Shown here piece after piece: positions 3,446 through 51,421 of a DNA stretch of 64,000 nucleotides. Source of the DNA: Escherichia coli (lineage in GTDB: Bacteria; Pseudomonadota; Gammaproteobacteria; Enterobacterales; Enterobacteriaceae). The notes under the pieces are model-generated. The model was not told the DNA's origin. It was given only the letters and a program-made list of their open reading frames with translations, and made no database searches. Location of the stretch: assembly GCF_003991155.1 (NCBI RefSeq), contig NZ_CP031293.1. One strand, written 5' to 3'. The stretch's first letter is position 1. Each line of letters starts with the position of its first letter. A program made the translations under genes and the position numbers.

Positions 3446-4386
3446 GCGTGGGCTCCTTCATGACGACGAATACGCGGGTCCAGCGCGGCGTTGAGCAAAT
3501 CGACAATCAAATTACAGACCACAAAAACCACCACCATCATCAGCGTAAAGCACTGGATCACCGGATAGTCACGGTTGAAAATCGCCGACACCGCATAGCG
3601 CCCGACGCCCGGCCAGGCAAAGATGTTTTCGATAATCATCGTCCCGCCAATCAGTTCGCCAATGTGCATCCCCACGGCGGTGATCATCGGCAGCGAGGCA
3701 TTGCGCAGGATGTGGCGGCGTTCGGTCTGTTTGTCGTTCAGGCCGCGCAGTCGCGCCCAGGTCACATGACGCTGACCGGCGACGTCCAGCATACTGGCGC
3801 GCAGCAGACGCGCGTTAATCGCCAGCGACATAAAAGCGATGGAAACCGCAGGCAAAATGATGTGCTGCCAGCCGCCGTAACCCATCGCGGGCAGCCATTG
3901 CAGATACACTGAAAATGCCATCACCAGTAAAAACGCCAACCAGAAGTTAGGCATCGACACGCCAAGAAACGCGATAAAACGCACGGCGAAATCCGGCAGG
4001 CGGTCGCGATGGCGCGCCGCCCAGATGCCGAGCGGCACGGAAGTGAGCAGAATTAATACCAGCGCCGCACCCGCCAGCTCCAGCGTGGCGGGCAGGAAGG
4101 TCAGCATATCGTCCAGCACCGGGCGTTGGCTGGCGAATGAGATACCAAAGTCAAGATGCAGCGCTTTCCACAACCAGGTTCCGTACTGCACGTACAACGG
4201 CTGATCCAGCCCCAGCATGGTGCGGGTAGAAGCCAGCATTTCCGGCGTCGGCGGCAGGTTAGACAGACGCAGATAATCGAGCGCCGGGTCGCCGGTGCCG
4301 AGGCGCAGCATCAGAAAAATGATCACCGAGGCGGCGAGCACCATCGGGATCAGCAGCAGAAAGCGGCGTAATACATAACGCAACAT
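3442..4386 (-). CDS. nikB: Nickel ABC transporter permease NikB
   Basis: ORF track 314 aa polytopic membrane protein; 4-nt overlap with nikC. Confidence 0.93.
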
Positions 4387-5960
4387 TAAGGTTTCACCGG
4401 TTTAATCTGTTCGAACGGGATTTCGGTGGCGATCGGCGCGTAGGGGATGTTACCCAGTTCCGGTTTTGAAACCACCATCATTGAGATATAGCTGATGGGC
4501 AGATAAACCGCCTCGTTATGCAGACGGGTCAGAATGTCGCGATACAGTGCCTGACGTTGTGTTTCGTCGTGTGTCGCCAGCACTTCGCCAATCTCTTTAT
4601 CAATCAGTGGCTTGTCGGCTAAACCTTGCTGTGCCTGGAAGTCAGCGTGCGACGGTACGCGCATTGAACTCAGGAAGGCGTGTGGATCGTATGGCGCGCC
4701 CCAGGTACGGTGGAAAATCATGCCAAAACGACCGTCGCGCTGACGAGCATAGATACTGCTCTCTTCTTCGCCGATCAGCGTGACATCCGCGCCAATCTGG
4801 CGCATATCAGCCTGAATGATTTCGGCCATTGATTTGCTTAACGCATCGGTGCCGATGAACGACAGTTCAATGCGCAGCGGCTGACCATTTTTCTCGCGGA
4901 TGTCTTTGCCTGCGGGCAGCGTCCAGCCTGCTTGTTCCAGCAACGCTTTCGCTTTCTGCGGATCGTACTGGCGCGGTTTCAGGCCGAGATTGGCATAGGG
5001 CACGGAAGGGGCAAACAGGGTGTCGGCGACCTGCTGGGTGCCATACAACGCGTTATCGATCAGCGATTTTTTGTTTACCGCGTAATTAAGAGCTTCACGG
5101 ACTGCCAGCTCGTTGGTGGGGGCTTTGGCAGTATTGAGCGCCAGCATCACGGTTTCGATCGGCTGTGACAGTTGGGTGTGGTAAGCCGGGTTCTGGCTAA
5201 AGCGGGCGAAGGTATCGAGCGGTAATAGCCCTTCATTACCGTATAGTAGATCGATATCGCCGGTTTCAAACGCTACTGCGCGGGTAGTCGGGTCCGGGAT
5301 CACGTTAAAGGTGATCTTTTTAATCGCCGGCTTTTCGCCCCAGTAGTTTTCGTTACGGACGAAGACATCGTACTGATTCAGTTTCGATTCCTGTAAAACC
5401 CACGGCCCGGTGCCAATCGGCGCTTTAATTCCGTTCATGGTTTCGTGGTTTTTAAACTGCGAGGGGGCGATAAAGCGGAAAGGACGGGGCAGGGCCAGTT
5501 CTTGCAGGAAAGGGTAGTAGGCGCTTTTCAGGGTGATTTGCAGCTCGGTTTTACTGAGAGCTTTGACATCAACAATCTGGTTTGCCAGCTCCAGCCAGGC
5601 GTGACGTTGACGGTTGTCGAGCACAGCGCGGAAGTTTTCTGCCGCGGCCTCTGCATCAAACGGTTCACCGTTAGAGAATTTCACATCATCACGCAGGGTG
5701 AAGGTCCAGGTTTTGCCATCTTCTGAATGGGTCCAGCTTTTTGCCAGCCACGGGATCACCGAACCGTCTGCCTGATATTTCACCAGTGGTTCATAAACCA
5801 TGCTCTGGGCGAACATTTGGTTAGGCGTGTAAAGGTGCGGGTTTAGTGGCCCGACATTCACCGGCCAGGCGGTGGTGATTTCATCTGGTGCAGCGGCATG
5901 GACGATAAAAGACGCACAAGCCAGCAGCGCAAATAGAGTGCGGCGGAGTGTAGAGAACAT
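4386..5960 (-). CDS. nikA: Periplasmic nickel-binding protein NikA
   Basis: ORF track 524 aa with signal peptide; family 5 substrate-binding protein; first gene of nik operon. Confidence 0.93.
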
Positions 5961-5998
5961 GGTAACCCCAATGGATTAAAATAGATGGCGGAAATAAG

Positions 5999-6026
5999 TA
6001 TGACGATTTTAAGTATTCGTCATACT
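5999..6026. promoter_or_regulatory. NikR operator (GTATGA-N16-TCATAC) in nikA promoter
   Basis: gtatgacgattttaagtattcgtcatac read directly upstream of nikA; matches the established NikR operator half-site spacing. Confidence 0.7.
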
Positions 6027-6070
6027 GATTACCTGTTCTGGATCAATAGATGGGCAGTCGGGTGGGCGGA

Positions 6071-6658
6071 TCAGTTAACTGAATCGATCCATTGCACACT
6101 GTCGGCGGTGAGCGTAAAGGGGGTAGGGGTGCAGATCGCCAGGCTTAAATTTTCTAGCTGACAATGGCTGACTGACAGCGAGGAGTTATAGGTGCTGTCT
6201 ACGCTGACGATTTGCCAGGCGCTGCCGCCACGCTGTTTAACGATGGCTTCTTTGCGCGTCCAGATGCGCCAGAACATTTCCAGTTGCTGATCAGGATGCA
6301 CGGCGTCCATCTCGGCATGTTCCCCAAGGCTGAATACGGCGTTCGCCAGCCAGCGCCAGTTGGCGCGCGGGCGAATCACTTCGATATCGCAGCCGACTTC
6401 GCCTTCATCGCTCAACAGCAGGGCGATATCGTCACCGCTATGGCTTAAGTTGAACCATAGCGGCGTTTCCGGCGCGAATGCAGGTTTGCCTTGTTCGCCA
6501 TAGATGATCTCCGGTAGCGGGGAAAGCGTGTGCGAAAGCAATGCACGCCCCGCCAGCCAGCGTTCGCGTCGTGGACCTTGCGGTGCTTGCTCGCGTAAAC
6601 CCGGTGGCAGAGGAGCTGCGCTTAAGGTCGAAACTTTCCCCAGAACTATCCGATACAT
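6071..6658 (-). CDS. acpT: Holo-ACP synthase-like phosphopantetheinyl transferase AcpT
   Basis: ORF track 195 aa; synteny between nikA and yhhT. Confidence 0.88.
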   Translation of the reverse strand: MYRIVLGKVSTLSAAPLPPGLREQAPQGPRRERWLAGRALLSHTLSPLPEIIYGEQGKPAFAPETPLWFNLSHSGDDIALLLSDEGEVGCDIEVIRPRANWRWLANAVFSLGEHAEMDAVHPDQQLEMFWRIWTRKEAIVKQRGGSAWQIVSVDSTYNSSLSVSHCQLENLSLAICTPTPFTLTADSVQWIDSVN

Positions 6659-6712
6659 ATCAGGGCCAACGTTTAATGGAAAATGAAAGTGCGTATCGTA
6701 ACACTTGTCGCC

Positions 6713-7762
6713 TCATCCCGGTAATCGACTTTTCGGTCTGCCCGGTCCCAGTAAAATCGCCAGTTTGCTACCGCCTTTGGTGGTTTCCATCCAGATTTTA
6801 CACACGCTGGTTAATGGTACCGAAAGTAGCATCCCTACCGGGCCGAGCAGCCATCCCCAAATTAACAATGAAAGAAATACCACCATGGTGGACATCCCCA
6901 GGCGATGGCCCATCATCCGTGGTTCTAAAATATTGCCGATGACCATATGGACCACTAAAAACAATGCGCCGACCAGAATACATTCGTAAACGCCATTAAA
7001 CAGCAGCACCTGAATCATTGGCGGTACGGCGGAAATTACCGCGCCGATATTGGGCACGTAGTTGAGCAAAAACGCCAGTACTGCCCACATCAGCGCAAAC
7101 TGTACGCCCATTAGCGCCAGCCCCAGCCAGACGATTACGCCTGTCCATAAACTTAGCAGTGTCTTCAATGCAAGATAGTGCGAAACACCTTTTAAGGCGC
7201 GGTGTAGTCCGGCGATGTGAATCTGTGGATTATTCAACGCAAAACGCATTTTGTAAGGGACGTGGCGCACTTCAAACAGCATGAAAACTACGGTCATCAC
7301 CAGCAAAAGCACGCTCGCCATTGCCCCGGAAAGCCCGGTCATTAGCGCCGTGGTGAAGGTAACCATTTTTTCCGAGTCCATCCGCTGCAGCATTCGCTCC
7401 GGCGACATATGCAAATTAAGAAAAGGCAACATCTCCTGCAATTTAAAAAGTTTGCGCGTCAGCTCCTTATTAAACTTCGGCAGCATAGAGATAAATTCGT
7501 TAAACGATGCCGCCAGTACGCCGACCAGCGCGGTTAGTGCGATCAGCATCACCACCACCACAATCGTAATGGCAACGGGGCGTTGTACTCCCCGACGAAT
7601 AAACCAGGTGACGAGCGGGTTGAGGACGATGGCAAAAAACAGCGCCAGTAACAGCTGCACAATGATATCTGCCGCTGCGTGAATTCCCGCGAGGATCACC
7701 ACCAGCGAGGCCAGCTTGAGCAGAATGTGCATGCCCGTTTTATCGGGTTGAGGGGTTTCCAT
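6713..7762 (-). CDS. yhhT: AI-2E family transporter YhhT
   Basis: ORF track 6713..7843; start moved to internal Met (METPQPDKTGMHILL...) giving 349 aa; polytopic membrane protein. Confidence 0.88.
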   Translation of the reverse strand: METPQPDKTGMHILLKLASLVVILAGIHAAADIIVQLLLALFFAIVLNPLVTWFIRRGVQRPVAITIVVVVMLIALTALVGVLAASFNEFISMLPKFNKELTRKLFKLQEMLPFLNLHMSPERMLQRMDSEKMVTFTTALMTGLSGAMASVLLLVMTVVFMLFEVRHVPYKMRFALNNPQIHIAGLHRALKGVSHYLALKTLLSLWTGVIVWLGLALMGVQFALMWAVLAFLLNYVPNIGAVISAVPPMIQVLLFNGVYECILVGALFLVVHMVIGNILEPRMMGHRLGMSTMVVFLSLLIWGWLLGPVGMLLSVPLTSVCKIWMETTKGGSKLAILLGPGRPKSRLPG

Positions 7763-7893
7763 TGGGGCTTCCTTGTGACTTTTTGTATTAAGTGTAGCGG
7801 GAGTCACGCCAGCAATATTCTGATTCTTACTGCTGATTTTCACGTCAGCACGTGGTAAAAATGAAACACTGTTGTAAAAATGTGGTGATCCTC

Positions 7894-9111
7894 ATGCCCG
7901 AACCCGTAGCCGAACCCGCGCTAAACGGATTGCGCCTGAATTTGCGCATTGTCTCCATTGTCATGTTTAACTTCGCCAGCTACCTCACCATCGGGTTGCC
8001 GCTCGCTGTATTACCGGGCTATGTCCATGATGTGATGGGCTTTAGCGCTTTTTGGGCAGGATTGGTTATCAGCCTGCAATATTTCGCCACCTTGCTGAGC
8101 CGCCCTCATGCCGGACGTTACGCCGATTTGCTGGGACCCAAAAAGATTGTCGTCTTTGGTTTATGCGGCTGCTTTTTGAGCGGTTTGGGGTATCTGACGG
8201 CAGGATTAACCGCCAGTCTGCCCGTCATCAGCCTGTTATTACTGTGCCTGGGGCGCGTGATCCTTGGGATTGGGCAAAGTTTTGCCGGAACGGGATCGAC
8301 CCTATGGGGCGTTGGCGTGGTTGGTTCGCTGCATATCGGGCGGGTGATTTCGTGGAACGGCATTGTCACTTACGGGGCGATGGCGATGGGTGCGCCGTTA
8401 GGTGTCGTGTTTTATCACTGGGGCGGCTTGCAGGCGTTAGCGTTAATCATTATGGGCGTGGCGCTGGTGGCCATTTTGTTGGCGATCCCGCGTCCGACGG
8501 TAAAAGCCAGTAAAGGCAAACCGCTGCCGTTTCGTGCGGTGCTTGGGCGCGTCTGGCTGTACGGTATGGCGCTGGCACTGGCTTCCGCCGGATTTGGCGT
8601 TATCGCCACCTTTATCACGCTGTTTTATGACGCTAAAGGTTGGGACGGTGCGGCTTTCGCGCTGACGCTGTTTAGCTGTGCGTTTGTCGGTACGCGTTTG
8701 TTATTTCCTAACGGCATTAACCGTATCGGCGGCTTAAACGTGGCGATGATTTGCTTTAGCGTTGAGATAATCGGCCTGCTACTGGTTGGCGTGGCGACTA
8801 TGCCGTGGATGGCGAAAATCGGCGTCTTACTCGCGGGGGCGGGGTTTTCGCTGGTGTTCCCGGCATTGGGCGTAGTGGCGGTAAAAGCGGTTCCGCAGCA
8901 AAATCAGGGGGCGGCGCTGGCAACTTACACCGTATTTATGGATTTATCGCTTGGCGTGACCGGACCACTGGCTGGGCTGGTGATGAGTTGGGCGGGCGTC
9001 CCGGTGATTTATCTGGCGGCGGCGGGACTGGTCGCAATCGCGTTATTACTGACGTGGCGATTAAAAAAACGGCCTCCGGTGGAAATACCTGAGGCCATCT
9101 CATCATCTTAA
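7894..9111 (+). CDS. yhhS: MFS transporter YhhS
   Basis: ORF track 7852..9111; start moved to ATG at 7894 (MPEPVAEP...) giving 405 aa; 12-TM MFS-like. Confidence 0.88.
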   Translation: MPEPVAEPALNGLRLNLRIVSIVMFNFASYLTIGLPLAVLPGYVHDVMGFSAFWAGLVISLQYFATLLSRPHAGRYADLLGPKKIVVFGLCGCFLSGLGYLTAGLTASLPVISLLLLCLGRVILGIGQSFAGTGSTLWGVGVVGSLHIGRVISWNGIVTYGAMAMGAPLGVVFYHWGGLQALALIIMGVALVAILLAIPRPTVKASKGKPLPFRAVLGRVWLYGMALALASAGFGVIATFITLFYDAKGWDGAAFALTLFSCAFVGTRLLFPNGINRIGGLNVAMICFSVEIIGLLLVGVATMPWMAKIGVLLAGAGFSLVFPALGVVAVKAVPQQNQGAALATYTVFMDLSLGVTGPLAGLVMSWAGVPVIYLAAAGLVAIALLLTWRLKKRPPVEIPEAISSS

Positions 9112-39596: not shown

Positions 39597-39665
39597 ACCC
39601 TCTATCATCCCAGGCTGATCGGGTCCACACTAAGCCCATCGAAATCATTCAGGGGGCGAATACAA

Positions 39666-40361
39666 ATGATCTACTTACGCAAAGCAAATGAACGTGGTCA
39701 TGCAAATCATGGCTGGCTGGACTCCTGGCATACTTTCTCTTTTGCCAACTACTACGACCCGAACTTTATGGGTTTCTCCGCGCTGCGCGTGATTAACGAC
39801 GACGTGATTGAAGCAGGGCAGGGCTTTGGCACTCACCCGCATAAAGATATGGAAATTTTGACCTACGTGCTGGAAGGTACTGTTGAGCACCAGGACAGCA
39901 TGGGCAATAAAGAGCAGGTTCCGGCGGGTGAGTTCCAGATTATGAGTGCGGGTACGGGTATCCGTCACTCTGAGTACAACCCAAGCAGCACCGAGCGTCT
40001 GCATCTGTATCAAATCTGGATCATGCCGGAAGAAAACGGCATCACGCCTCGCTATGAGCAGCGCCGTTTCGATGCCGTACAGGGCAAACAGCTGGTGCTC
40101 TCGCCGGATGCGCGAGATGGTTCGCTGAAAGTGCATCAGGATATGGAACTGTATCGTTGGGCATTGCTGAAAGATGAGCAGTCGGTGCATCAGATTGCCG
40201 CTGAACGCCGCGTCTGGATCCAGGTGGTGAAAGGCAATGTCACCATTAACGGCGTGAAAGCCTCGACCAGCGATGGTCTGGCAATCTGGGATGAGCAGGC
40301 AATCTCCATTCATGCGGATAGCGACAGCGAAGTGTTACTGTTCGATCTGCCGCCGGTTTAA
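39666..40361 (+). CDS. yhhW: Pirin-like quercetin 2,3-dioxygenase YhhW
   Basis: ORF track 231 aa; cupin His motifs (HPHKDMEI). Confidence 0.9.
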   Translation: MIYLRKANERGHANHGWLDSWHTFSFANYYDPNFMGFSALRVINDDVIEAGQGFGTHPHKDMEILTYVLEGTVEHQDSMGNKEQVPAGEFQIMSAGTGIRHSEYNPSSTERLHLYQIWIMPEENGITPRYEQRRFDAVQGKQLVLSPDARDGSLKVHQDMELYRWALLKDEQSVHQIAAERRVWIQVVKGNVTINGVKASTSDGLAIWDEQAISIHADSDSEVLLFDLPPV

Positions 40362-40584
40362 AACTCAACGGCATCTTTGAAGCCTGCCTTTTTGCAGGCT
40401 TCCTCGCTCGCTCCGGTCGCGTGCTGATATACGCTTCCGGGGTTTTGCCGTGTCGTTAGCACAATGCGATGCAATTGATTTAGTGTATATCTAATAATTG
40501 TAAACAAGCACTGTTTTCCCCGGGAAGGTTCTGATGCGTCCGTGTTAAACTAAGAGAATCTATCTCTTTTGTACCTTCAGGACG

Positions 40585-41580
40585 ATGAAAAAGAAAAGAC
40601 CCGTACTTCAGGATGTGGCTGACCGTGTAGGCGTGACCAAAATGACGGTCAGCCGTTTTTTACGCAACCCGGAGCAGGTTTCCGTCGCTCTACGCGGCAA
40701 GATTGCCGCCGCTCTTGATGAACTGGGTTATATTCCCAATCGCGCGCCCGATATCCTCTCTAACGCCACCAGCCGGGCGATTGGCGTCCTGTTACCTTCT
40801 CTCACCAACCAGGTTTTTGCGGAAGTATTACGCGGAATCGAAAGCGTCACCGACGCGCACGGTTATCAGACCATGCTGGCCCACTACGGTTATAAACCGG
40901 AAATGGAGCAAGAACGCCTCGAATCCATGCTCTCCTGGAATATCGACGGCCTGATCCTCACTGAACGTACGCACACGCCGCGCACCTTAAAGATGATTGA
41001 AGTGGCGGGGATTCCAGTGGTGGAACTGATGGACAGCAAGTCGCCATGCCTCGATATCGCCGTCGGTTTTGATAACTTTGAAGCGGCACGCCAGATGACC
41101 ACCGCCATTATTGCTCGCGGGCATCGTCACATTGCCTATCTCGGCGCACGCCTCGACGAACGTACTATCATCAAACAGAAGGGATACGAACAGGCGATGC
41201 TGGATGCAGGCCTGGTGCCGTATAGCGTGATGGTCGAGCAATCTTCTTCTTACTCTTCCGGTATTGAACTGATTCGCCAGGCGCGGCGGGAATATCCGCA
41301 GCTGGATGGCGTGTTCTGTACTAATGATGATCTGGCGGTCGGCGCGGCGTTTGAATGTCAGCGTCTGGGGTTAAAAGTTCCTGACGATATGGCGATTGCC
41401 GGTTTCCATGGTCATGACATTGGTCAGGTGATGGAACCACGGTTGGCGAGCGTACTGACGCCGCGTGAGCGGATGGGCAGTATTGGCGCTGAACGCCTGC
41501 TGGCGCGTATTCGTGGCGAATCTGTGACACCGAAAATGTTAGATTTAGGTTTCACCTTGTCACCGGGCGGATCTATTTAA
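40585..41580 (+). CDS. gntR: Gluconate repressor GntR (LacI family)
   Basis: ORF track 331 aa; N-terminal HTH (VTKMTVSRFL). Confidence 0.95.
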   Translation: MKKKRPVLQDVADRVGVTKMTVSRFLRNPEQVSVALRGKIAAALDELGYIPNRAPDILSNATSRAIGVLLPSLTNQVFAEVLRGIESVTDAHGYQTMLAHYGYKPEMEQERLESMLSWNIDGLILTERTHTPRTLKMIEVAGIPVVELMDSKSPCLDIAVGFDNFEAARQMTTAIIARGHRHIAYLGARLDERTIIKQKGYEQAMLDAGLVPYSVMVEQSSSYSSGIELIRQARREYPQLDGVFCTNDDLAVGAAFECQRLGLKVPDDMAIAGFHGHDIGQVMEPRLASVLTPRERMGSIGAERLLARIRGESVTPKMLDLGFTLSPGGSI

Positions 41581-41659
41581 GCCCACAAATTTGAAGTAGC
41601 TCACACTTATACATTTAAGGCACGGATGGATATTGCTTCTGATATTGTCCGGCCGGACA

Positions 41660-41688
41660 ATGTTACCGATAACAGTTACCCGTAACAT
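41660..41688. promoter_or_regulatory. GntR operator palindrome upstream of gntK
   Basis: atgttaccgataacagttacccgtaacat read from sequence; imperfect palindrome of the atgttac...gtaacat type. Confidence 0.6.
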
Positions 41689-41718
41689 TTTTAATTCTTG
41701 TATTGTGGGGGCACCACT

Positions 41719-42246
41719 TTGAGCACGACTAACCATGATCACCACATTTACGTCTTGATGGGCGTATCGGGCAGCGGCAAATCTGCGGTCGCCAGTGAAG
41801 TGGCGCATCAACTTCATGCCGCGTTTCTTGATGGCGATTTCCTCCATCCGCGCTGCAATATCGAAAAAATGGCGTCTGGCGAACCGCTGAATGACGACGA
41901 TCGCAAACCGTGGTTGCAGGCGCTGAACGACGCCGCGTTTGCTATGCAGCGCACTAATAAAGTGTCGCTGATTGTCTGTTCTGCACTGAAAAAACACTAT
42001 CGTGACCTGCTACGCGCGGGTAATCCGAATCTCTCTTTCATCTACCTGAAAGGCGATTTTGATGTGATTGAAAGCCGCCTGAAAGCGCGCAAAGGCCATT
42101 TCTTTAAAACCCAAATGTTGGTGACGCAGTTTGAAACGCTGCAGGAGCCGGGTGCGGACGAAACCGATGTACTGGTGGTAGATATCGATCAACCGCTGGA
42201 AGGTGTTGTGGCAAGCACCATTGAGGTTATTAAAAAAGGCAAATAA
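41719..42246 (+). CDS. gntK: Gluconokinase GntK (TTG start)
   Basis: ORF track 41698..42246; start placed at TTG 41719 giving MSTTNHDHHIYVLMGVSGSGKS, 175 aa; P-loop present. Confidence 0.88.
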   Translation: MSTTNHDHHIYVLMGVSGSGKSAVASEVAHQLHAAFLDGDFLHPRCNIEKMASGEPLNDDDRKPWLQALNDAAFAMQRTNKVSLIVCSALKKHYRDLLRAGNPNLSFIYLKGDFDVIESRLKARKGHFFKTQMLVTQFETLQEPGADETDVLVVDIDQPLEGVVASTIEVIKKGK

Positions 42247-42249
42247 GTA

Positions 42250-43590
42250 GTGACTACATTAACGCTTGTTTTAACAGCAGTAGGGTCTGTTTTACTGCTG
42301 CTGTTTTTAGTCATGAAGGCGCGTATGCACGCTTTCCTGGCTTTGATGGTGGTGTCCATGGGGGCTGGCCTTTTTTCCGGTATGCCGCTCGATAAAATCG
42401 CAGCGACGATGGAAAAAGGGATGGGAGGCACCCTCGGCTTTCTGGCGGTGGTTGTCGCCCTGGGAGCCATGTTTGGCAAGATCTTACATGAAACCGGCGC
42501 AGTCGATCAGATTGCCGTCAAAATGCTCAAATCCTTCGGTCACAGCCGCGCGCATTATGCCATCGGCCTTGCGGGGCTGGTCTGTGCGCTACCGCTGTTC
42601 TTTGAAGTGGCGATTGTTCTGCTGATTAGCGTTGCTTTCTCAATGGCGCGCCACACCGGTACGAACCTGGTGAAGCTGGTAATCCCATTATTCGCAGGCG
42701 TGGCGGCCGCGGCTGCGTTCCTGGTGCCTGGACCAGCGCCAATGCTGCTGGCATCGCAGATGAACGCCGACTTTGGCTGGATGATCCTGATTGGCCTGTG
42801 TGCGGCAATTCCGGGAATGATTATTGCCGGGCCGCTGTGGGGTAATTTCATCAGCCGCTACGTGGAGCTGCATATTCCTGACGACATCAGCGAACCACAT
42901 CTCGGTGAAGGCAAAATGCCGTCCTTCGGATTCAGCCTGTCGCTGATCCTGTTGCCACTGGTGCTGGTGGGGCTGAAAACCATTGCCGCGCGTTTTGTGC
43001 CAGAAGGCTCTACCGCTTACGAATGGTTCGAGTTTATCGGCCATCCGTTTACCGCGATTCTGGTTGCTTGTCTGGTAGCAATTTATGGCCTGGCAATGCG
43101 TCAGGGTATGCCAAAAGACAAAGTGATGGAGATTTGTGGTCACGCGCTGCAACCGGCGGGGATCATTCTGCTGGTGATTGGTGCAGGCGGCGTGTTCAAA
43201 CAGGTGCTGGTTGACTCTGGTGTCGGTCCGGCACTGGGCGAAGCGTTAACCGGCATGGGCCTGCCGATTGCCATCACCTGCTTCGTGCTGGCAGCTGCAG
43301 TGCGCATCATTCAGGGTTCTGCCACTGTTGCCTGTTTAACGGCGGTGGGACTGGTAATGCCGGTCATTGAACAACTGAACTACTCCGGTGCGCAAATGGC
43401 GGCGCTGTCGATTTGTATCGCCGGTGGTTCGATTGTTGTCAGCCACGTTAACGACGCGGGTTTCTGGTTGTTCGGTAAATTTACCGGCGCGACCGAAGCC
43501 GAAACGCTTAAAACCTGGACCATGATGGAAACCATCCTCGGCACTGTTGGTGCCATCGTTGGGATGATTGCGTTCCAGCTGTTGAGTTAA
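42250..43590 (+). CDS. gntU: Low-affinity gluconate transporter GntU (GTG start)
   Basis: ORF track 446 aa GntP-family permease. Confidence 0.9.
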   Translation: MTTLTLVLTAVGSVLLLLFLVMKARMHAFLALMVVSMGAGLFSGMPLDKIAATMEKGMGGTLGFLAVVVALGAMFGKILHETGAVDQIAVKMLKSFGHSRAHYAIGLAGLVCALPLFFEVAIVLLISVAFSMARHTGTNLVKLVIPLFAGVAAAAAFLVPGPAPMLLASQMNADFGWMILIGLCAAIPGMIIAGPLWGNFISRYVELHIPDDISEPHLGEGKMPSFGFSLSLILLPLVLVGLKTIAARFVPEGSTAYEWFEFIGHPFTAILVACLVAIYGLAMRQGMPKDKVMEICGHALQPAGIILLVIGAGGVFKQVLVDSGVGPALGEALTGMGLPIAITCFVLAAAVRIIQGSATVACLTAVGLVMPVIEQLNYSGAQMAALSICIAGGSIVVSHVNDAGFWLFGKFTGATEAETLKTWTMMETILGTVGAIVGMIAFQLLS

Positions 43591-43601
43591 TTACTGCGAC
43601 A

Positions 43602-43640
43602 AATTACTGCGAGCTTGCTCGCAGTAATTCATTTCTCTTA
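43602..43640 (+). terminator. Palindromic terminator after gntU
   Basis: aattactgcgagc-ttg-ctcgcagtaatt perfect palindrome followed by T-rich tract. Confidence 0.55.
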
Positions 43641-43729
43641 TCTCCTCTCTTCATCTTTTTGATCTCTCTCGCAAATTTACCTGCTAATAATCCGTTCTAA
43701 TCACTGCCTAAAGATCGCAGGAGATAAAG

Positions 43730-45826
43730 ATGGAAAAGCACGGAGCTGAATTGCTTTTACAGCGGATGTTAGGAAATACCACCGCTACTTTCAGGGAAGG
43801 GCAATGGGAAGCCATAGATGCAGTGGTTAATCAGCGGCGAAAACTGCTGGTTGTACAGCGCACCGGCTGGGGGAAAAGTGCCGTGTACTTCATCGCCAGT
43901 AAAATCTTCCGCGATCGCGGCGCTGGCCCGACAATTATCATCTCTCCTTTGCTTGCCCTGATGCGTAACCAGGTTGCCGCCGCTGAACGGTTAGGTATTA
44001 CGGCTGAAACGTTGAATTCTACAAACAGGGAAGAATGGCAGCGCATTAGCGATAAGTTGCTGCAAGGTGAGGTCGATTGCTTGCTGGTTTCCCCGGAACG
44101 TTTGGCAAACCAGGACTTTATCGAAACGGTTTTATATCCTATAGCCGATCGTATTGGCTTGCTTGTGGTCGACGAGGCGCACTGCATCTCTGATTGGGGC
44201 CACGATTTTCGCCCGGATTACCGACGTATATTAGATATTTTGCGCCAACTGCCTGCGAATACCCCTGTTCTGGGTACAACCGCGACAGCGAATAACCGTG
44301 TTGTTGAGGATATCCGTCAGCAATTGGGTGACATTGTGATTCAGCGTGGAACGCTGGCTCGCGAAAGTTTGGCGCTTGATGCCTTAGTCTTAGGAGAACA
44401 GTCATCCCGTCTGGCATGGTTAGCAACGGTTATCCCTCAGTTTTCCAAATCGGGAATTGTTTATACCCTGACGACTCGCGATGCTGAACTTGTCGCCGAG
44501 TGGTTAAGGAAAAATGGTATCAGTGCATTTGCTTACTACAGCGGCGTGACTTGTGAAGGCGCGGAAGATTCTAATACTGCCAGGGAATATCTGGAGCAGG
44601 CACTGCTGGCAAATAAAATCAAAGTGCTGGTCGCGACGACGGCATTAGGTATGGGGTTTGATAAACCTGATTTAGGTTTCGTCATTCATTATCAGATGCC
44701 GGGGTCTATTGTCGGTTACTACCAACAGGTGGGGCGTGCCGGGCGTGCTATAGATTCCGCAGTTGGCATATTGCTTTGTGGTGGTGAAGACCGCGCTATT
44801 CATCAATTCTTCCGTGAAAGCGCCTTTCCTGCGGAGGCGCAAATTCATGAAATACTCAACGTACTTAGCGAGAATGACGGTCTTACCCTACGAGGCATTG
44901 AACAACGGACGAATCTTCGTTATGGGCAAATAGAAAAAGCACTGAAATTATTGGTAGCGGAAAATCCATCGCCTGTGGTGTATACCGAGAAATTATGGCG
45001 CAGAACTATCGTCAGTTTTTCTCCTGATCATGAACGAATTAACCATTTGATGAATCAGAGAAAAAGTGAGCTGGCAGACGTTGAAAGCTATATCACGACC
45101 AAGGAGTGCAAAATGCAATTTCTGCGCCGTGCACTCGATGAGCCAAGTGCCGAACGTTGTGGTAAATGTAGCAGTTGTCTTCAACATCCGTTATTGTCGC
45201 CCGACATTGATAGCGGCTTACTCCATGCGGCAAATTTATTTATTAAACACGCTGACCTGCCGTTAAATCTCAATAAACAGGTGGCAGCTGGGGCTTTTAC
45301 GCAATACGGATTTAAAGGGAACTTGCCTGCGGGTTTACAAGGATCTACGGGGCGAATCCTTTCTCGTTGGGGAGATTCCGGGTGGGGAAAGCAGGTAGCA
45401 CAGGAGAAAAAAACGGGGCGCTTAAGTGATGAGCTGGTAGAAGCATGTGCGGAAATGGTTTGCCAACGCTGGAATCCGCATCCTGAACCAACCTGGGTAT
45501 GCTGCGTTCCTTCATTAAGGCACCTCGACCTGGTTCCTGATTTTGCCCGGCGACTGGCGGCGAAACTTGGCTTACCTTTTATTGATGCCATTGAAAAAGT
45601 CGTGGACAATCCACCGCAGAAAATGCAGCAAAACCGTTTTCACCAGTGTCAAAATCTCGACGGGGCGTTTGTGATTACCCCTCCTTTGATGCCAGGTCCG
45701 GCGTTGCTGGTTGACGATATCGTGGATTCTGCATGGACGCTGACAGTTCTGACAGCACTGTTACGCAAGGCAGGTTGCCCGACGGTTTATCCTCTTGCCC
45801 TTGCTTCTACCTCGGTAAAAAATTGA
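43730..45826 (+). CDS. RecQ-family SF2 helicase fused to Cys-cluster and C-terminal ComFC-like phosphoribosyltransferase-type domain
   Basis: ORF track 698 aa. Walker A QRTGWGKS, DEAH box VVDEAHCISDWGHDFRPDY (RecQ-type), TATA motif, motif VI QQVGRAGRA, Cys cluster CGKCSSC, C-terminal PRT-like loop ALLVDDIVDSAWT preceded by ComF-like segment. By my recollection not present at this position in K-12. Confidence 0.8.
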   Translation: MEKHGAELLLQRMLGNTTATFREGQWEAIDAVVNQRRKLLVVQRTGWGKSAVYFIASKIFRDRGAGPTIIISPLLALMRNQVAAAERLGITAETLNSTNREEWQRISDKLLQGEVDCLLVSPERLANQDFIETVLYPIADRIGLLVVDEAHCISDWGHDFRPDYRRILDILRQLPANTPVLGTTATANNRVVEDIRQQLGDIVIQRGTLARESLALDALVLGEQSSRLAWLATVIPQFSKSGIVYTLTTRDAELVAEWLRKNGISAFAYYSGVTCEGAEDSNTAREYLEQALLANKIKVLVATTALGMGFDKPDLGFVIHYQMPGSIVGYYQQVGRAGRAIDSAVGILLCGGEDRAIHQFFRESAFPAEAQIHEILNVLSENDGLTLRGIEQRTNLRYGQIEKALKLLVAENPSPVVYTEKLWRRTIVSFSPDHERINHLMNQRKSELADVESYITTKECKMQFLRRALDEPSAERCGKCSSCLQHPLLSPDIDSGLLHAANLFIKHADLPLNLNKQVAAGAFTQYGFKGNLPAGLQGSTGRILSRWGDSGWGKQVAQEKKTGRLSDELVEACAEMVCQRWNPHPEPTWVCCVPSLRHLDLVPDFARRLAAKLGLPFIDAIEKVVDNPPQKMQQNRFHQCQNLDGAFVITPPLMPGPALLVDDIVDSAWTLTVLTALLRKAGCPTVYPLALASTSVKN

Positions 45827-47028
45827 TGAATCTTTCAGCCAATGCACAAGCGACCCTCCTGCTAACCAGCGATTTTTCTCGCGCGGCGGCGAGTGAGTAT
45901 AAACCTCTTAGTAATAGTGAATGGGGGAAGTTTGCATTATGGCTGAAGCACCAACGTATCAGTCCCGCCGATCTTCTGGTGCCGCAACCGCAAGAGAAAC
46001 TTACAGGCTGGAGCGATCCGCGTATTTCTCAGGAGCGTATTCTTGGCTTGCTGGCGCGTGGCCATAGTCTGGCGTTGGCGGTAGATAAGTGGCAACGCGC
46101 CGGTTTATGGATCTTAACCCGCGGAGATGCCGATTATCCCGTTCGCTTGAAAAACCGATTGCGAACGGATGCACCTCCCGTTTTATTTGGCTGCGGGAAT
46201 AAAGCATTACTGCAAGCGGAAGGTATGGCGATTGTTGGCTCGCGAGATGCTCCGACTGCCGATTTGCGCTATACCCAACAACTGGCAGCGAAACTGGCCC
46301 AACAGGGGATTTGCGTTATCTCTGGTGGTGCGCGAGGTATTGATGAATGTGCAATGGCGTCGGCACTGGAGGCCGGGGGAACTGCCGTTGGCGTATTAGC
46401 TGATAGCTTGTTAAAAACGAGTACGTTAGTGAAATGGCGTGAAGGGCTTATAGCAGGCAACCTGGTGTTGATTTCGCCGTTTTACCCAGAGGTACGTTTC
46501 ACCGTCGGCAATGCGATGGCGCGAAATAAATATATTTATTGCCTTGCTGAAAGCGCAATGGTTGTACGTGCGGGAATGACCGGTGGAACGATAACCGGAG
46601 CGATGGAGGCGTTAAAACATCAGTGGCTGCCTGTGCAGGTTAAACCAAATCAGGATGTGCAATCAGCCAATTCACGATTAGTAGAAAATGGGGCGTCATG
46701 GAGTGCTGAACAGGCTGAGAATGTGACGATCAGACTGCCAGACGTTCCTGGGCTGATGTATGACAGAGCACTCCGTAACGCTCAACCAGAATTGTTTTCG
46801 CTGCACGAAGATGACGCAAATTACGCAGTGATGCCCTCGCATACCCCTGTCGATTTTTATCAACTTTTTGTGGCGGAACTGGCGATCCTTGCAAAGGAAT
46901 CGATAAGTATTGAAAGGCTGGCGTCTTGTACTGGTTTAACCATCGAACAAATTAGTGTGTGGCTGAACCGCGCAGAAGAAGAGGGAAGGGTTATCCGATT
47001 GGGCGAAGGTCATTATCAGTTCAGGTAA
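45826..47028 (+). CDS. DprA/Smf-family (SLOG superfamily) protein, paralog of housekeeping DprA
   Basis: ORF track 45733..47028; likely start ATG 45826 overlapping the helicase stop as TGATG (400 aa). Rossmann-type DprA core AIVGSRDAPTADLRYTQQLAAKLAQQGICVISGGARGIDECAMASALEAGG, N-terminal SAM-like region, C-terminal winged-helix-like tail. Confidence 0.8.
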   Translation: MNLSANAQATLLLTSDFSRAAASEYKPLSNSEWGKFALWLKHQRISPADLLVPQPQEKLTGWSDPRISQERILGLLARGHSLALAVDKWQRAGLWILTRGDADYPVRLKNRLRTDAPPVLFGCGNKALLQAEGMAIVGSRDAPTADLRYTQQLAAKLAQQGICVISGGARGIDECAMASALEAGGTAVGVLADSLLKTSTLVKWREGLIAGNLVLISPFYPEVRFTVGNAMARNKYIYCLAESAMVVRAGMTGGTITGAMEALKHQWLPVQVKPNQDVQSANSRLVENGASWSAEQAENVTIRLPDVPGLMYDRALRNAQPELFSLHEDDANYAVMPSHTPVDFYQLFVAELAILAKESISIERLASCTGLTIEQISVWLNRAEEEGRVIRLGEGHYQFR

Positions 47029-47031
47029 TAA

Positions 47032-47067
47032 AACAGGTGCCGCCTCTGGTTGTGTGCAGCACCTGTT
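47032..47067. terminator. Bidirectional hairpin between DprA-like gene and yhgN
   Basis: aacaggtgccgc ... gcagcacctgtt stem (11 of 12 paired) read from sequence. Confidence 0.5.
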
Positions 47068-47073
47068 TGAACC

Positions 47074-47667
47074 TTACCCTTTCATCCACATTCGAATGCC
47101 GTCGAGGAACATCTGGGTTGCCATCATCACCAGAATCAATCCCATCAGGCGTTCAAGTGCATTCACCCCTTTCTCGCCCAGCAGACGTAAAAATAGCGAA
47201 GACTGTAGCAGGATAACAAAGGTGCCACCCCAGGCCAGCAGCAGAGCAATTACCAGATGTCCCATCTGATTCGGGTACTGATGAGACAACAACATCAGCG
47301 TGGCGAGAATAGTCGGCCCGGCGACTAACGGAATTGCCAACGGCACGATAAACGGCTCTTCACCTGCCGGAAGCCCGCTGCTATTTCCTGAAGCGCTGGG
47401 GAAAATCATCTTAATGGCGATCAGAAACAGAATGATGCCGCCAGAAATGGAGACGGTTTCTGCTCGCAGGCTGAGAAATGCCAGAATTTTCTCACCCGCA
47501 AACAGGAACACCAGCATCACCAGGAGAGCAATAAGCAACTCCCGCACCATGATTGCCCGCCGTCTTTTCGGTTCAGTATGTTTCAGTACGGACATGAAAA
47601 TAGGTAGGTTTCCGAGCGGATCCATAATCAGGATCAATAAAACTGCTGCAGAAATGATTTCATTCAT
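47074..47667 (-). CDS. yhgN: MarC-family inner membrane protein YhgN
   Basis: ORF track 197 aa polytopic membrane protein; synteny next to asd. Confidence 0.9.
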   Translation of the reverse strand: MNEIISAAVLLILIMDPLGNLPIFMSVLKHTEPKRRRAIMVRELLIALLVMLVFLFAGEKILAFLSLRAETVSISGGIILFLIAIKMIFPSASGNSSGLPAGEEPFIVPLAIPLVAGPTILATLMLLSHQYPNQMGHLVIALLLAWGGTFVILLQSSLFLRLLGEKGVNALERLMGLILVMMATQMFLDGIRMWMKG

Positions 47668-47858
47668 AACTCAAATTCCCTGATAATTGCCGCGGACTTT
47701 CTGCGTGCTAACAAAGCAGGATAAGTCGCATTACTGATGGCTTCGCTATCATTGATTAATTTCACTTGCGACTTTGGCTGCTTTTTGTATGGTGAAAGAT
47801 GTGCCAGGAGGAGACCGGCACATTTATACAGCACACATCTTTGCAGGAAAAAACGCTT

Positions 47859-48962
47859 ATGAAAAATGTTGGTTTTATCGGCTGGCGCGGTATGGTCGGC
47901 TCCGTTCTCATGCAACGCATGGTTGAAGAGCGCGACTTCGACGCCATTCGCCCTGTCTTCTTTTCTACTTCTCAGCTTGGTCAGGCTGCGCCGTCTTTTG
48001 GCGGAACCACTGACACACTTCAGGATGCCTTTGATCTGGAGGCGCTAAAGGCCCTCGATATCATTGTGACCTGTCAGGGCGGCGATTATACCAACGAAAT
48101 CTATCCAAAGCTTCGTGAAAGCGGATGGCAAGGTTACTGGATTGACGCAGCATCATCTCTGCGCATGAAAGATGACGCCATCATCATTCTTGACCCCGTC
48201 AATCAGGACGTCATTACCGACGGATTAAATAATGGCATCAGGACTTTTGTTGGCGGTAACTGTACCGTAAGCCTGATGTTGATGTCGTTGGGTGGTTTAT
48301 TCGCCAATGATCTTGTTGATTGGGTGTCCGTTGCAACCTACCAGGCCGCTTCCGGCGGTGGTGCGCGACATATGCGTGAGTTATTAACCCAGATGGGCCA
48401 TCTGTATGGCCATGTGGCAGATGAACTCGCGACCCCGTCCTCTGCTATTCTCGATATCGAACGCAAAGTCACAACCTTAACCCGTAGCGGTGAGCTGCCG
48501 GTAGATAACTTTGGCGTGCCGCTGGCGGGTAGCCTGATTCCGTGGATCGACAAACAGCTTGATAACGGTCAGAGCCGCGAAGAGTGGAAAGGGCAGGCGG
48601 AAACCAACAAGATCCTCAACACATCTTCCGTAATTCCGGTAGATGGTTTATGTGTGCGTGTCGGGGCATTGCGCTGCCACAGCCAGGCATTCACTATTAA
48701 ATTGAAAAAAGATGTGTCTATTCCGACCGTGGAAGAACTGCTGGCTGCGCACAATCCGTGGGCGAAAGTTGTTCCAAACGATCGGGAAATCACTATGCGT
48801 GAGCTAACCCCAGCTGCCGTTACCGGCACGCTGACCACGCCGGTAGGCCGTCTGCGTAAGCTGAATATGGGACCGGAGTTCCTGTCAGCCTTTACCGTAG
48901 GCGACCAGCTGCTGTGGGGGGCCGCGGAGCCGCTGCGTCGGATGCTTCGTCAACTGGCGTAA
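47859..48962 (+). CDS. asd: Aspartate-semialdehyde dehydrogenase
   Basis: ORF track 47799..48962; start moved to [15 protein letters not shown] giving 367 aa. Confidence 0.95.
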
Positions 48963-49234
48963 TCTTTATTCATTAAATCTGGGGCGCGATGCCGCCCCTG
49001 CTAGTGCGTAATACAGGAGTAAGCGCAGATGTTTCATGATTTACCGGGAGTTAAATAGAGCATTGGCTATTCTTTAAGGGTGGCGGAATACACGAGTATT
49101 CACAGCCTTACCTGAAGTGAGGACGACGCAGAGAGGATGCACAGAGTGCTGCGCCGTTCAGGTCAAAAAAATGTCACAACCAGAAGTCAAAAATTCAGTT
49201 GGATGGGGTGACACAATAAAACAGGAAGACAAGC

Positions 49235-51421
49235 ATGTCCGATCGTATCGATAGAGACGTGATTAACGCGCTAATTGCAGGCCATTTTGCGGATCCTTTT
49301 TCCGTACTGGGGATGCATAAAACCACCGCGGGACTGGAAGTCCGTGCCCTTTTACCCGACGCTACCGATGTGTGGGTGATTGAACCGAAAACCGGGCGCA
49401 AACTCGCAAAACTGGAGTGTCTCGACTCCCGTGGATTCTTTAGCGGTGTCATTCCGCGACGTAAGAATTTTTTCCGCTATCAACTGGCTGTTGTCTGGCA
49501 TGGTCAGCAAAACCTGATAGATGATCCTTACCGTTTTGGTCCGCTAATCCAGGAAATGGATGCCTGGCTATTATCTGAAGGTACTCACCTGCGCCCGTAT
49601 GAAACCTTAGGCGCGCATGCAGATACTATGGATGGCGTCACAGGTACGCGTTTTTCTGTCTGGGCTCCAAACGCCCGTCGGGTCTCGGTGGTTGGGCAAT
49701 TCAACTACTGGGACGGTCGCCGTCATCCGATGCGCCTGCGTAAAGAGAGCGGCATCTGGGAACTGTTTATCCCTGGGGCGCATAACGGTCAGCTCTATAA
49801 ATATGAGATGATTGATGCCAATGGCAACTTGCGTCTGAAGTCCGACCCTTATGCCTTCGAAGCGCAAATGCGCCCGGAAACCGCGTCTCTTATTTGCGGG
49901 CTGCCGGAAAAGGTTGTGCAGACTGAAGAGCGCAAAAAAGCGAATCAGTTTGATGCGCCAATCTCTATTTATGAAGTTCACCTGGGCTCCTGGCGTCGCC
50001 ACACCGACAACAATTTCTGGTTGAGCTACCGCGAGCTGGCCGATCAACTGGTGCCTTATGCTAAATGGATGGGCTTTACCCATCTCGAGCTACTGCCCAT
50101 TAACGAGCATCCCTTCGATGGCAGTTGGGGTTATCAGCCAACCGGCCTGTATGCACCGACCCGCCGTTTTGGTACCCGCGACGACTTCCGTTATTTCATT
50201 GATGCCGCACACGCAGCTGGTCTGAACGTGATTCTCGACTGGGTGCCAGGCCACTTCCCGACCGATGACTTTGCGCTTGCCGAATTTGATGGCACGAACT
50301 TGTATGAACACAGCGATCCGCGCGAAGGCTATCATCAGGACTGGAACACGCTGATCTACAACTATGGTCGCCGTGAAGTTAGTAACTTCCTTGTCGGTAA
50401 CGCGCTTTACTGGATCGAACGTTTTGGTATTGATGCGCTGCGCGTCGATGCGGTGGCGTCAATGATTTATCGCGACTACAGCCGTAAAGAGGGGGAGTGG
50501 ATCCCGAACGAATTTGGCGGGCGCGAGAATCTTGAAGCGATTGAATTCTTGCGTAATACCAACCGTATTCTTGGTGAGCAGGTTTCCGGTGCGGTGACAA
50601 TGGCGGAGGAGTCTACCGATTTCCCTGGCGTTTCTCGTCCGCAGGACATGGGCGGTCTGGGCTTCTGGTACAAGTGGAACCTCGGCTGGATGCATGACAC
50701 CCTGGACTACATGAAGCTCGACCCGGTTTATCGTCAGTATCATCACGATAAACTGACCTTCGGGATGCTCTACAACTACACTGAAAACTTCGTCCTGCCG
50801 TTGTCGCATGATGAAGTGGTCCACGGTAAAAAATCGATTCTCGATCGGATGCCGGGCGACGCATGGCAGAAATTCGCTAACCTGCGCGCCTACTACGGCT
50901 GGATGTGGGCATTCCCGGGCAAGAAATTGCTGTTCATGGGGAACGAATTTGCCCAGGGCCGCGAGTGGAACCATGACGCCAGCCTCGACTGGCATCTGTT
51001 GGAAGGCGGCGATAACTGGCACCACGGTGTCCAGCGTCTGGTGCGCGATCTGAACCTCACCTACCGCCACCATAAAGCAATGCATGAACTGGATTTTGAC
51101 CCGTACGGCTTTGAATGGCTGGTGGTGGATGACAAAGAACGCTCGGTGCTGATCTTTGTGCGTCGCGATAAAGAGGGTAACGAAATCATCGTTGCCAGTA
51201 ACTTTACTCCGGTGCCGCGTCATGATTATCGCTTCGGCATTAACCAGCCGGGCAAATGGCGTGAAATCCTCAATACCGATTCCATGCACTATCACGGCAG
51301 TAATGCCGGCAATGGCGGCACGGTACACAGCGATGAGATTGCCAGCCACGGTCGTCAGCATTCACTAAGCCTGACACTACCACCGCTGGCCACTATCTGG
51401 CTGGTTCGGGAGGCAGAATGA
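49235..51421 (+). CDS. glgB: 1,4-alpha-glucan branching enzyme GlgB
   Basis: ORF track 728 aa; GH13 motifs. Confidence 0.95.

What the first reader, a model, noticed from the sequence alone, without database searches (positions are those of the whole stretch)
43591..47073. About 3.4 kb segment between gntU and yhgN with no mobility signatures, bracketed by palindromic terminators
Seen in sequence: the two-gene module sits between the gntU terminator palindrome (43602..43629) and a bidirectional hairpin (47032..47067) shared with yhgN. There are no direct repeats, integrase, transposase or tRNA, and GC content looks host-like by eye. By my recollection gntU and yhgN are adjacent in K-12. Inference: either an old, ameliorated insertion into an intergenic hotspot or an ancestral locus deleted in the K-12 lineage.
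Basis: partly seen in the sequence, partly recalled or inferred. Interest (0 to 1): 0.55.

Follow-up and report, generated by a model that had tools for sequence, protein, structure and literature searches.

The report
Known PsyrTA (RqlHI) toxin–antitoxin operon
The 3.5 kb between gntU and yhgN is the already described rqlHI / PsyrTA toxin–antitoxin (phage-defence) operon, here as an old, immobile chromosomal resident that about 30% of E. coli carry and the rest, including K-12, lack.

Summary
A 3,483-bp segment with two co-oriented genes lies between gntU and yhgN. It is bounded by two real hairpins and has no repeats, tRNA or recombinase. K-12 has only 56 bp there.

The genes are not unknown. 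They match the PADLOC profiles PsyrT (1062 bits) and PsyrA (670 bits) over their full length. Knock-out primers published for rqlH/rqlI of ExPEC strain F11 map onto the locus. The toxin is a RecQ-like helicase fused to a phosphoribosyltransferase (PRTase) domain, and a DprA-like partner restrains it.

Across 5,426 complete E. coli genomes the site has two states only:
- 1,650 genomes carry the module.
- 3,774 carry the same 56-bp empty junction.
- None carries other cargo, so this is not a swapping hotspot.

Several results point to an ancient resident locus that was later lost, not a recent insertion:
- Synonymous divergence of the module within E. coli equals that of its neighbours.
- Both genes are under purifying selection.
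- The pair sits at the same position in Citrobacter werkmanii, Silvania and Klebsiella grimontii, with a homologous upstream spacer.
- Module distances track flank distances.

Verdict: already known. The only new content is the modest account of its evolutionary history.

The parts
43591..47073 (+). Whole variable segment between the gntU stop and the yhgN stop. It replaces the 56-bp spacer of K-12.
   Evidence: Homology with K-12 breaks exactly at both stop codons. The segment is present in 1,650 of 5,426 complete E. coli genomes.
43602..43629 (+). Hairpin after gntU, the probable gntU terminator. It belongs to the module-bearing allele.
   Evidence: dG -16.6, z -5.5. It is terminator-like and homologous to the hairpins in Silvania and K. 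grimontii, but not to the K-12 hairpin.
43719..43723 (+). Shine-Dalgarno sequence AGGAG, 6 nt before the psyrT/rqlH ATG.
   Evidence: Read from the sequence.
43730..45826 (+). psyrT = rqlH, the toxin. It is a RecQ-like SF2 helicase (GWGKS 46-50, DEAH 148-151, QQVGRAGR 332-339, Zn-Cys 460-483) with a C-terminal PRTase domain (VDDIVDSAWT 661-670).
   Evidence: PADLOC PsyrT 1061.7 bits over residues 3-697. Pfam DEAD, Helicase_C, RecQ_Zn_bind and Pribosyltran. NCBIfam recQ_fam passes its cutoff. Motifs. The F11 rqlH primers map at 43690-43709 and 45806-45845.
45826..47028 (+). psyrA = rqlI, the antitoxin. It has a DprA-like Rossmann/SLOG domain (GSR 138-140, GGARGID 167-173) and a possible C-terminal HTH. 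The start overlaps the psyrT stop (TGATG).
   Evidence: PADLOC PsyrA 669.5 bits over residues 1-400. Pfam DNA_processg_A E 2e-50. RqlI is 400 aa in PMC4670107.
47031..47068 (.). Hairpin between the convergent genes psyrA and yhgN. It is a good intrinsic terminator only on the - strand (yhgN).
   Evidence: dG -22.5 and -26.3, z -3.9 and -4.5. Inverted repeat I21.

Best explanation
The segment is the chromosomal rqlHI operon, the PsyrTA toxin-antitoxin/anti-phage family.

Gene products. PsyrT/RqlH is a RecQ-type DNA helicase with a C-terminal PRTase domain. PsyrA/RqlI is a DprA-like protein translated from a start codon that overlaps the toxin's stop codon.

Shown for the F11 ortholog in the literature. 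The two genes form an operon and the proteins bind each other. [quoted passage not shown]

Inferred. During phage infection the antitoxin's restraint is lost, either through host shut-off with an unstable antitoxin or through titration by phage ssDNA. This is what has been proposed for the related DprA-like antitoxin ShosA. The helicase-tethered PRTase then damages DNA or nucleotide metabolism and aborts the infection.

Evolution, shown here. The module is not mobile. It is an old resident of the gntU-yhgN interval in Enterobacteriaceae and has diverged together with its neighbours. In E. coli it persists as a strict presence/absence polymorphism against a single 56-bp empty allele.
For: Identity:
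- Full-length PADLOC hits to PsyrT and PsyrA.
- Domain architecture and intact motifs.
- Published rqlH primers map to 43690-43709 and 45806-45845.
- MG1655 lacks both genes, RqlI is 400 aa, the genes form an operon, the proteins interact, and the PRTase domain is toxic (PMC4670107).
- PsyrTA = RqlHI is listed among the phage-resistance systems of Millman et al..

Population:
- 1,650 of 5,426 genomes carry it, always on the chromosome.
- 3,774 have the intact empty junction, and the two classes sum to every matching genome.
- All 41 sampled module-less genomes have gntU and yhgN adjacent.

Age:
- Module nucleotide identity between lineages is 95.9-99.9%, like the flanks.
- dS of psyrT is 0.10-0.17 against 0.10-0.13 for gntR/gntU. 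dS of psyrA is 0.04-0.05 against 0.03-0.08 for yhgN/asd. dN/dS is 0.06-0.08 for psyrT and 0.23-0.40 for psyrA.
- The same synteny occurs in Silvania, K. grimontii, C. werkmanii and three unidentified contigs.
- The left spacer and its hairpin are homologous across genera.
- Module distance correlates with flank distance, rho 0.74 and 0.62.
Against: - Anti-phage activity of this E. coli allele is not shown. In strain NILS69, neither deleting PsyrTA nor expressing it in K-12 gave detectable protection (10.1101/2024.12.20.629700).
- The PRTase acceptor substrate and the trigger are unknown, and no structure of the family is solved.
- GC3 is 10-15 points below the neighbours, which keeps an ultimately foreign origin possible.
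- No species-representative genome of another Escherichia species carries a copy. A regain by recombination early in E. coli history therefore cannot be excluded.
- The pairs used for the distance correlation are not independent.
Confidence: 0.9

Rival explanations
1. A horizontally acquired, ameliorated islet, recently inserted into an intergenic integration hotspot where different defence cargos alternate.
For: The segment is variable (30% of genomes). GC3 is lower than in the neighbours. The family is scattered widely in other genomic contexts across Proteobacteria.
Against: - There is no alternative cargo in 5,424 genomes.
- There are no repeats, tRNA or recombinase.
- The module's dS equals that of the flanks within E. 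coli.
- Position and upstream spacer are the same in other genera.
Confidence: 0.05
2. A selfish addiction module. The toxin-antitoxin pair persists because losing it is costly, with no net benefit to the host such as defence.
For: - A rqlI deletion is deleterious only when rqlH is present (PMC4670107).
- No protection was detected in a native host.
- O157:H7 keeps an intact antitoxin next to a frameshifted toxin, the decay order expected for an addiction pair.
Against: - Purifying selection acts on the toxin across lineages (dN/dS 0.06-0.08).
- Millman et al. place the family among verified phage-resistance systems.
- 70% of genomes have lost it cleanly, so the addiction is weak.
Confidence: 0.2
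3. A resident DNA-processing or repair module. A helicase, a ComF-like PRTase and a DprA-like protein mirror ComFA/ComFC/DprA of natural transformation. On this reading the toxicity is a side effect of an unbalanced complex.
For: - The domain parallel with ComFA/ComFC/DprA was noted by Russell & Mulvey.
- One genome annotation calls the split C-terminal part a 'ComF family protein' (H30).
- The locus is fixed, vertically inherited and lies among housekeeping genes.
- rqlI contributes to fitness in infection models.
Against: - The authors detected no transformation in ExPEC.
- The module is dispensable in 70% of E. coli.
- Both proteins score below the curated cutoffs for true RecQ and true DprA.
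Confidence: 0.12

Closest known systems
RqlH/RqlI of ExPEC strains F11, CFT073 (c4222 = rqlI) and 536 (ECP_3529) (Russell & Mulvey 2015, PMC4670107)
   Same: It is the same operon at the same locus. Published primers map with one mismatch each. RqlI is 400 aa, the gene order is the same and the start and stop codons overlap. MG1655 lacks it.
   Different: It is an allelic variant. A lineage that shares the 131-bp yhhW-gntR deletion (FDAARGOS_1373), whose phylogroup was not determined, is about 97% identical in DNA and differs by 12 aa in PsyrT and 9 aa in PsyrA. No sequence from F11, CFT073 or 536 was compared directly.
PsyrTA toxin-antitoxin / anti-phage family (Sberro 2013; Millman 2022; PADLOC PDLC03928 and PDLC03927)
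   Same: Both profiles match end to end, with 1062 and 670 bits. The toxin is RecQ-like plus PRTase, and the antitoxin is DprA-like.
   Different: Defence has not been shown for this E. coli allele. A native-host test was negative.
ShosTA (PRTase-pyrophosphatase toxin with the DprA-like antitoxin ShosA; PMC11961720, PMC12961424)
   Same: The logic is shared: a DprA-like antitoxin and a PRTase-based genotoxic toxin that causes filamentation. ShosA is the nearest solved antitoxin-type structure (9vzo).
   Different: ShosT has no helicase. PsyrA scores only 92 bits on the ShosA profile against 670 on PsyrA. ShosA does not bind ShosT, whereas RqlI binds RqlH.
M. smegmatis RqlH (RecQ-like helicase with a PRTase tail, PMC3378886)
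   Same: It has the same helicase-PRTase fusion. Its 3'-5' helicase activity has been shown biochemically.
   Different: It stands alone, without an RqlI partner, as in most Gram-positive bacteria.

Membership tests
PsyrTA / RqlHI | The toxin has an N-terminal RecQ-type SF2 helicase core. | tested here: met
   Pfam DEAD, Helicase_C and RecQ_Zn_bind. TIGR00614 recQ_fam scores 252.8, above its cutoff of 219.8. The motifs GWGKS, DEAH and QQVGRAGR and the Zn-Cys cluster are present.
PsyrTA / RqlHI | A C-terminal PRTase domain is fused to the helicase. | tested here: met
   Pfam Pribosyltran covers 605-684, weakly (E 0.004). The PRPP-loop motif VDDIVDSAWT is at 661-670. The PsyrT profile is matched through residue 697.
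PsyrTA / RqlHI | A DprA-like antitoxin is encoded immediately downstream, on the same strand, close to or overlapping the toxin gene. | tested here: met
   PF02481 E 2e-50. PsyrA profile 1-400. TGATG overlap at 45824-45828.
PsyrTA / RqlHI | The toxin is toxic through its PRTase domain and is neutralised by direct binding of the antitoxin. | not testable with these tools
   Shown experimentally for the F11 ortholog (PMC4670107). Orthology to this locus is shown by primer mapping.
PsyrTA / RqlHI | It confers resistance to phage. | not testable with these tools
   Reported for the family. Not detected for E. coli NILS69 PsyrTA.
ShosTA | A ShosA-type antitoxin and a ShosT toxin (PRTase plus pyrophosphatase, no helicase). 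| tested here: not met
   The ShosA profile gives only 92.5 bits, over residues 85-266. The toxin carries a RecQ helicase core, and no ShosT profile is among the 25 listed PADLOC hits.
Canonical RecQ / canonical DprA (housekeeping) | The score reaches the NCBIfam equivalog cutoff. | tested here: not met
   recQ TIGR01389 scores 296 against a cutoff of 640. dprA TIGR00732 scores 102 against a cutoff of 191.
Dpd (7-deazaguanine DNA modification) system, DpdF | The DpdF equivalog score is reached and other dpd genes lie nearby. | tested here: not met
   NF041063 DpdF scores 149 against a cutoff of 550. The neighbours are gntU and yhgN.
Genomic island / mobile element | Integrase or transposase, a tRNA or att target, and flanking direct repeats. 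| tested here: not met
   All 1,659 matching places are chromosomal, and nearly every genome has one copy.
Defence-island hotspot with alternating cargo | Different gene content at the same junction in different strains. | tested here: not met
   1,650 module alleles plus 3,774 identical-type empty junctions equal all 5,424 matching genomes. All 41 sampled module-less genomes have the empty span.

The most novel reading that the evidence does not exclude
The pair may not be primarily a mobile defence cargo. It could be an anciently resident chromosomal DNA-processing module: a helicase, a ComF-like PRTase and a DprA-like partner, echoing ComFA/ComFC/DprA. On this reading it has co-diverged with its neighbours since before Escherichia, Citrobacter and Klebsiella split. 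In E. coli it would be kept as a long-lived presence/absence polymorphism by balancing selection, with the antitoxin evolving faster than the toxin.
Probability: 0.15. Interest if true: 0.45.

Novelty: already known. Interest (0 to 1): 0.15.

Why it matters
The finding adds little as a discovery. The operon was named and functionally dissected in 2015 (rqlHI), and it is detected routinely by PADLOC and DefenseFinder as PsyrTA.

The useful by-products are descriptive:
- In E. coli this system is a fixed-locus, strictly two-state polymorphism with no mobility machinery.
- It is as old as its housekeeping neighbours.
- It is syntenic in several enterobacterial genera.

This makes it a clean natural case for asking why a toxin-antitoxin/defence pair is kept in some lineages and lost in others. 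The mechanism also remains open: the PRTase substrate, the trigger and the structure are all unknown.

Tried and rejected
- K-12 spacer: I searched its 56 bp for remnants of the module in eight module-bearing loci. Only chance 9-10-mers matched, so a simple deletion scar could not be shown.
- Outgroup empty site: Phytobacter has gntU and yhgN adjacent, but its REP-like spacer is unrelated to the K-12 spacer and to both module-end spacers. It therefore says nothing about the origin of the E. coli empty allele.
- Promoter scan: no sigma-70 consensus was found upstream of psyrT.
- Rfam: no hit in 43300-47400 at E <= 1.
- PDB: no solved PsyrT or PsyrA, only RecQ cores, DprA and ShosA.
- Third published primer (CGAATGTGGATGAAGGGTA): no match within 2 mismatches. 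The window has one extra base in that stretch of the yhgN end, which may be strain variation or a text-extraction error.
- DpdF, canonical RecQ, canonical DprA and ShosTA were considered and rejected on curated cutoffs or profile scores.
- The organism of contig L093 (PsyrT 87%, PsyrA 72.5%) could not be identified.
Full report
**1. The observation**

The window carries gntR-gntK-gntU on the + strand, ending at 43590. yhgN lies on the - strand at 47074-47667, followed by asd and glgB.

Between gntU and yhgN are 3,483 bp holding two + strand ORFs. The first runs 43730-45826 and encodes 698 aa. The second ends at 47028. Its longest reading starts at 45733, but an ATG at 45826 overlaps the upstream stop codon (TGATG) and gives 400 aa.

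- 43602-43629 folds at -16.6 kcal/mol (z -5.5).
- 47031-47068 folds at -22.5 kcal/mol on the + strand and -26.3 on the - strand. Only the - strand version has a good U-tract.

There is no tRNA within 10 kb, no direct repeat at the boundaries and no recombinase ORF.

Bulk GC is 49.4% against 53.5% in the flanks. GC3 is 46.5% against 57-62% for gntU, asd and glgB, so the composition is only roughly host-like.

In K-12, gntU and yhgN are 56 bp apart.

The window is 100% identical to E. coli 2016C-3878 over both regions queried, 43591-47073 and 39600-51000.

**2. What the genes are**

ORF1 matches the PADLOC profile PsyrT end to end (1061.7 bits, residues 3-697). ORF2 matches PsyrA end to end (669.5 bits, residues 1-400).

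Pfam finds the following:
- ORF1: DEAD, Helicase_C, a weak RecQ zinc-binding module and a weak C-terminal Pribosyltran domain.
- ORF2: DNA_processg_A (E 2e-50) with a SLOG fold.

NCBIfam places ORF1 in the RecQ family but far below the cutoff for true RecQ. ORF2 is far below the cutoff for true DprA.

Catalytic motifs are intact. In the toxin these are GWGKS, DEAH, QQVGRAGR, the Zn cysteines and the PRPP loop VDDIVDSAWT. In the antitoxin they are GSR and GGARGID.

PsyrTA is the same system as RqlHI. Russell & Mulvey (PMC4670107) characterised rqlH/rqlI in ExPEC strain F11. They reported that:
- the genes form an operon and the proteins interact;
- RqlH is genotoxic through its PRTase domain when RqlI is absent;
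- RqlI is 400 aa;
- MG1655 lacks both genes.

Their knock-out and confirmation primers map uniquely in the window, one mismatch each. One lies just upstream of ORF1 (43690-43709). The other spans the ORF1 stop and ORF2 start (45806-45845). The locus is therefore rqlHI itself, not merely a relative.

**3. Distribution in E. coli**

Among 5,426 complete genomes, 1,650 carry the segment (1,641 of them at 80% coverage or more). It is always chromosomal and nearly always a single copy. Identity is 95% or higher.

A query spanning the K-12 empty junction is intact in 3,774 genomes. In all the others it splits exactly at the two stop codons. 3,774 plus 1,650 equals 5,424, which is every genome with a match.

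In a rank-spread sample with an 11.4-kb query, all 41 module-less genomes had gntU and yhgN directly adjacent.

The interval is therefore strictly two-state. No alternative cargo exists, and the idea of a hotspot with swapping cargo is not supported.

The empty allele is a single type, the same 56-bp spacer with its own hairpin. It occurs well beyond K-12, including the B2 strain UTI89 at 97.8% identity.

The 56 bp share nothing detectable with the module or with its end spacers.

**4. Age and origin**

Between E. coli lineages the module is 95.9-99.9% identical, like its flanks.

| Genes | dS | dN/dS |
|---|---|---|
| psyrT | 0.10-0.17 | 0.06-0.08 |
| gntR, gntU | 0.10-0.13 | 0-0.07 (all flanking genes) |
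| psyrA | 0.04-0.05 | 0.23-0.40 |
| yhgN, asd | 0.03-0.08 | 0-0.07 (all flanking genes) |

So synonymous divergence of each module gene matches that of its neighbours, and both genes are under purifying selection. The module has been in place for as long as the surrounding core genes have been diverging within the species.

Outside E. coli, a scan of one genome per species found the closest relatives in Silvania hatchlandensis and Klebsiella grimontii. Exact-protein look-ups added Citrobacter werkmanii and three unidentified contigs.

Where the contig extends far enough (Silvania, K. grimontii, C. werkmanii, L090 and L091), the pair sits in the same yhhW-gntRKU-psyrTA-(yhgN)-asd-glgBX context. 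yhgN is missing in K. grimontii and L090. The short contig L093 shows only yhgN downstream.

The gntU-psyrT spacer, including its hairpin, is homologous across genera. The downstream spacer is not.

Module protein distances track flank distances, with Spearman rho 0.74 for PsyrT and 0.62 for PsyrA. The pairs are not independent.

The module evolves several times faster than its flanks. Between E. coli and C. werkmanii, PsyrT is 74% and PsyrA 63% identical, against 96% for the flanks. The antitoxin evolves faster than the toxin.

The other 78 loci returned by the scan, at 44-67% identity, lie in unrelated contexts.

No species-representative genome of another Escherichia species carries a copy. 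Only one unidentified contig is intermediate, with PsyrT at 87%.

The best reading is an ancient resident of this locus in Enterobacteriaceae with repeated loss. In E. coli a single derived empty allele then coexists with it and spreads by recombination. An early re-acquisition by homologous recombination cannot be excluded.

**5. Mechanism**

Shown in the literature for the ortholog:
- RqlI binds RqlH.
- Unrestrained RqlH causes SOS induction, filamentation and mutagenesis through its PRTase domain.

Shown for the family: it is listed among the systems that confer phage resistance, and a psyrA deletion could not be transformed.

Inferred by analogy with ShosTA:
- Infection may remove the antitoxin's restraint. 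This could happen through transcription shut-off with an unstable antitoxin (PMC11961720). It could also happen through competition from phage ssDNA at a DprA-like sensor (PMC12961424).
- The PRTase, tethered to DNA by the helicase, would then cause an abortive infection.

Caveats:
- ShosA does not bind ShosT, whereas RqlI binds RqlH, so the analogy is partial.
- In E. coli NILS69 neither deleting PsyrTA nor expressing it in K-12 gave measurable protection.
- No structure of the family is solved.

**6. Verdict**

It is neither a swapping hotspot nor a K-12-specific deletion.

The element itself is already known (rqlHI/PsyrTA). What is added here is a population and comparative description of the locus, which is of modest interest.

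Noticed in passing
L083 (O157:H7 SS52) 4131-6255; window equivalents 44245 and 45516: In O157:H7 the toxin gene is a pseudogene, while the antitoxin gene is intact. It has a 1-bp deletion at window position 44245 and a 29-bp insertion, unverified as a tandem duplication (AAAGCACCTCGACCTGGTTCCTGATTTTG), after 45516. About one fifth of the sampled module-bearing genomes show this +28-bp allele.
   Followed up: partly
window 45733-45825: RefSeq/PGAP annotates the DprA-like gene from 45733 (431 aa), overlapping psyrT by 94 nt. The PsyrA profile, orthologs of 394-403 aa and the published 400-aa RqlI all point to the ATG at 45826.
   Followed up: yes
H30 (NZ_OZ501598.1); Shigella sonnei partial DprA, P0012: A few genomes carry split copies: 9 extra places among 1,650 records. 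In H30 the C-terminal toxin fragment is annotated as 'ComF family protein'. S. sonnei has truncated copies, in line with the IS-disrupted rqlH reported for S. sonnei 53G.
   Followed up: no
window about 40362-40585 (yhhW-gntR intergenic): A 131-bp presence/absence indel separates lineages. FDAARGOS_1373 and several module-less strains lack it. The sequence contains a GC-rich hairpin (GAAGCCTGCCTTTTTGCAGGCTTC) but was not characterised further.
   Followed up: partly
L005 (K. grimontii) 7165-7565 and L090 7213-7630: These two module-bearing loci lack yhgN altogether. psyrA is followed directly by about 400 bp and then asd.
   Followed up: no
L095 (GCA_031985045.1) 4698-8446: One contig encodes a YhgN identical to that of Phytobacter. 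Next to yhgN, instead of gntU, it has an HTH_3/AAA_28 gene, a RadA-like gene and a HAD hydrolase gene. This indicates a rearrangement at this junction in that genome.
   Followed up: no
13 plasmid places: Thirteen E. coli plasmid records carry a glgB homolog about 82% identical to the chromosomal gene (for example NZ_LR890350.1).
   Followed up: no
window 43591-43612: A short direct repeat, TTACTGCGA (43591-43599 and 43604-43612), lies immediately after the gntU stop. The second copy forms part of the left hairpin arm.
   Followed up: no
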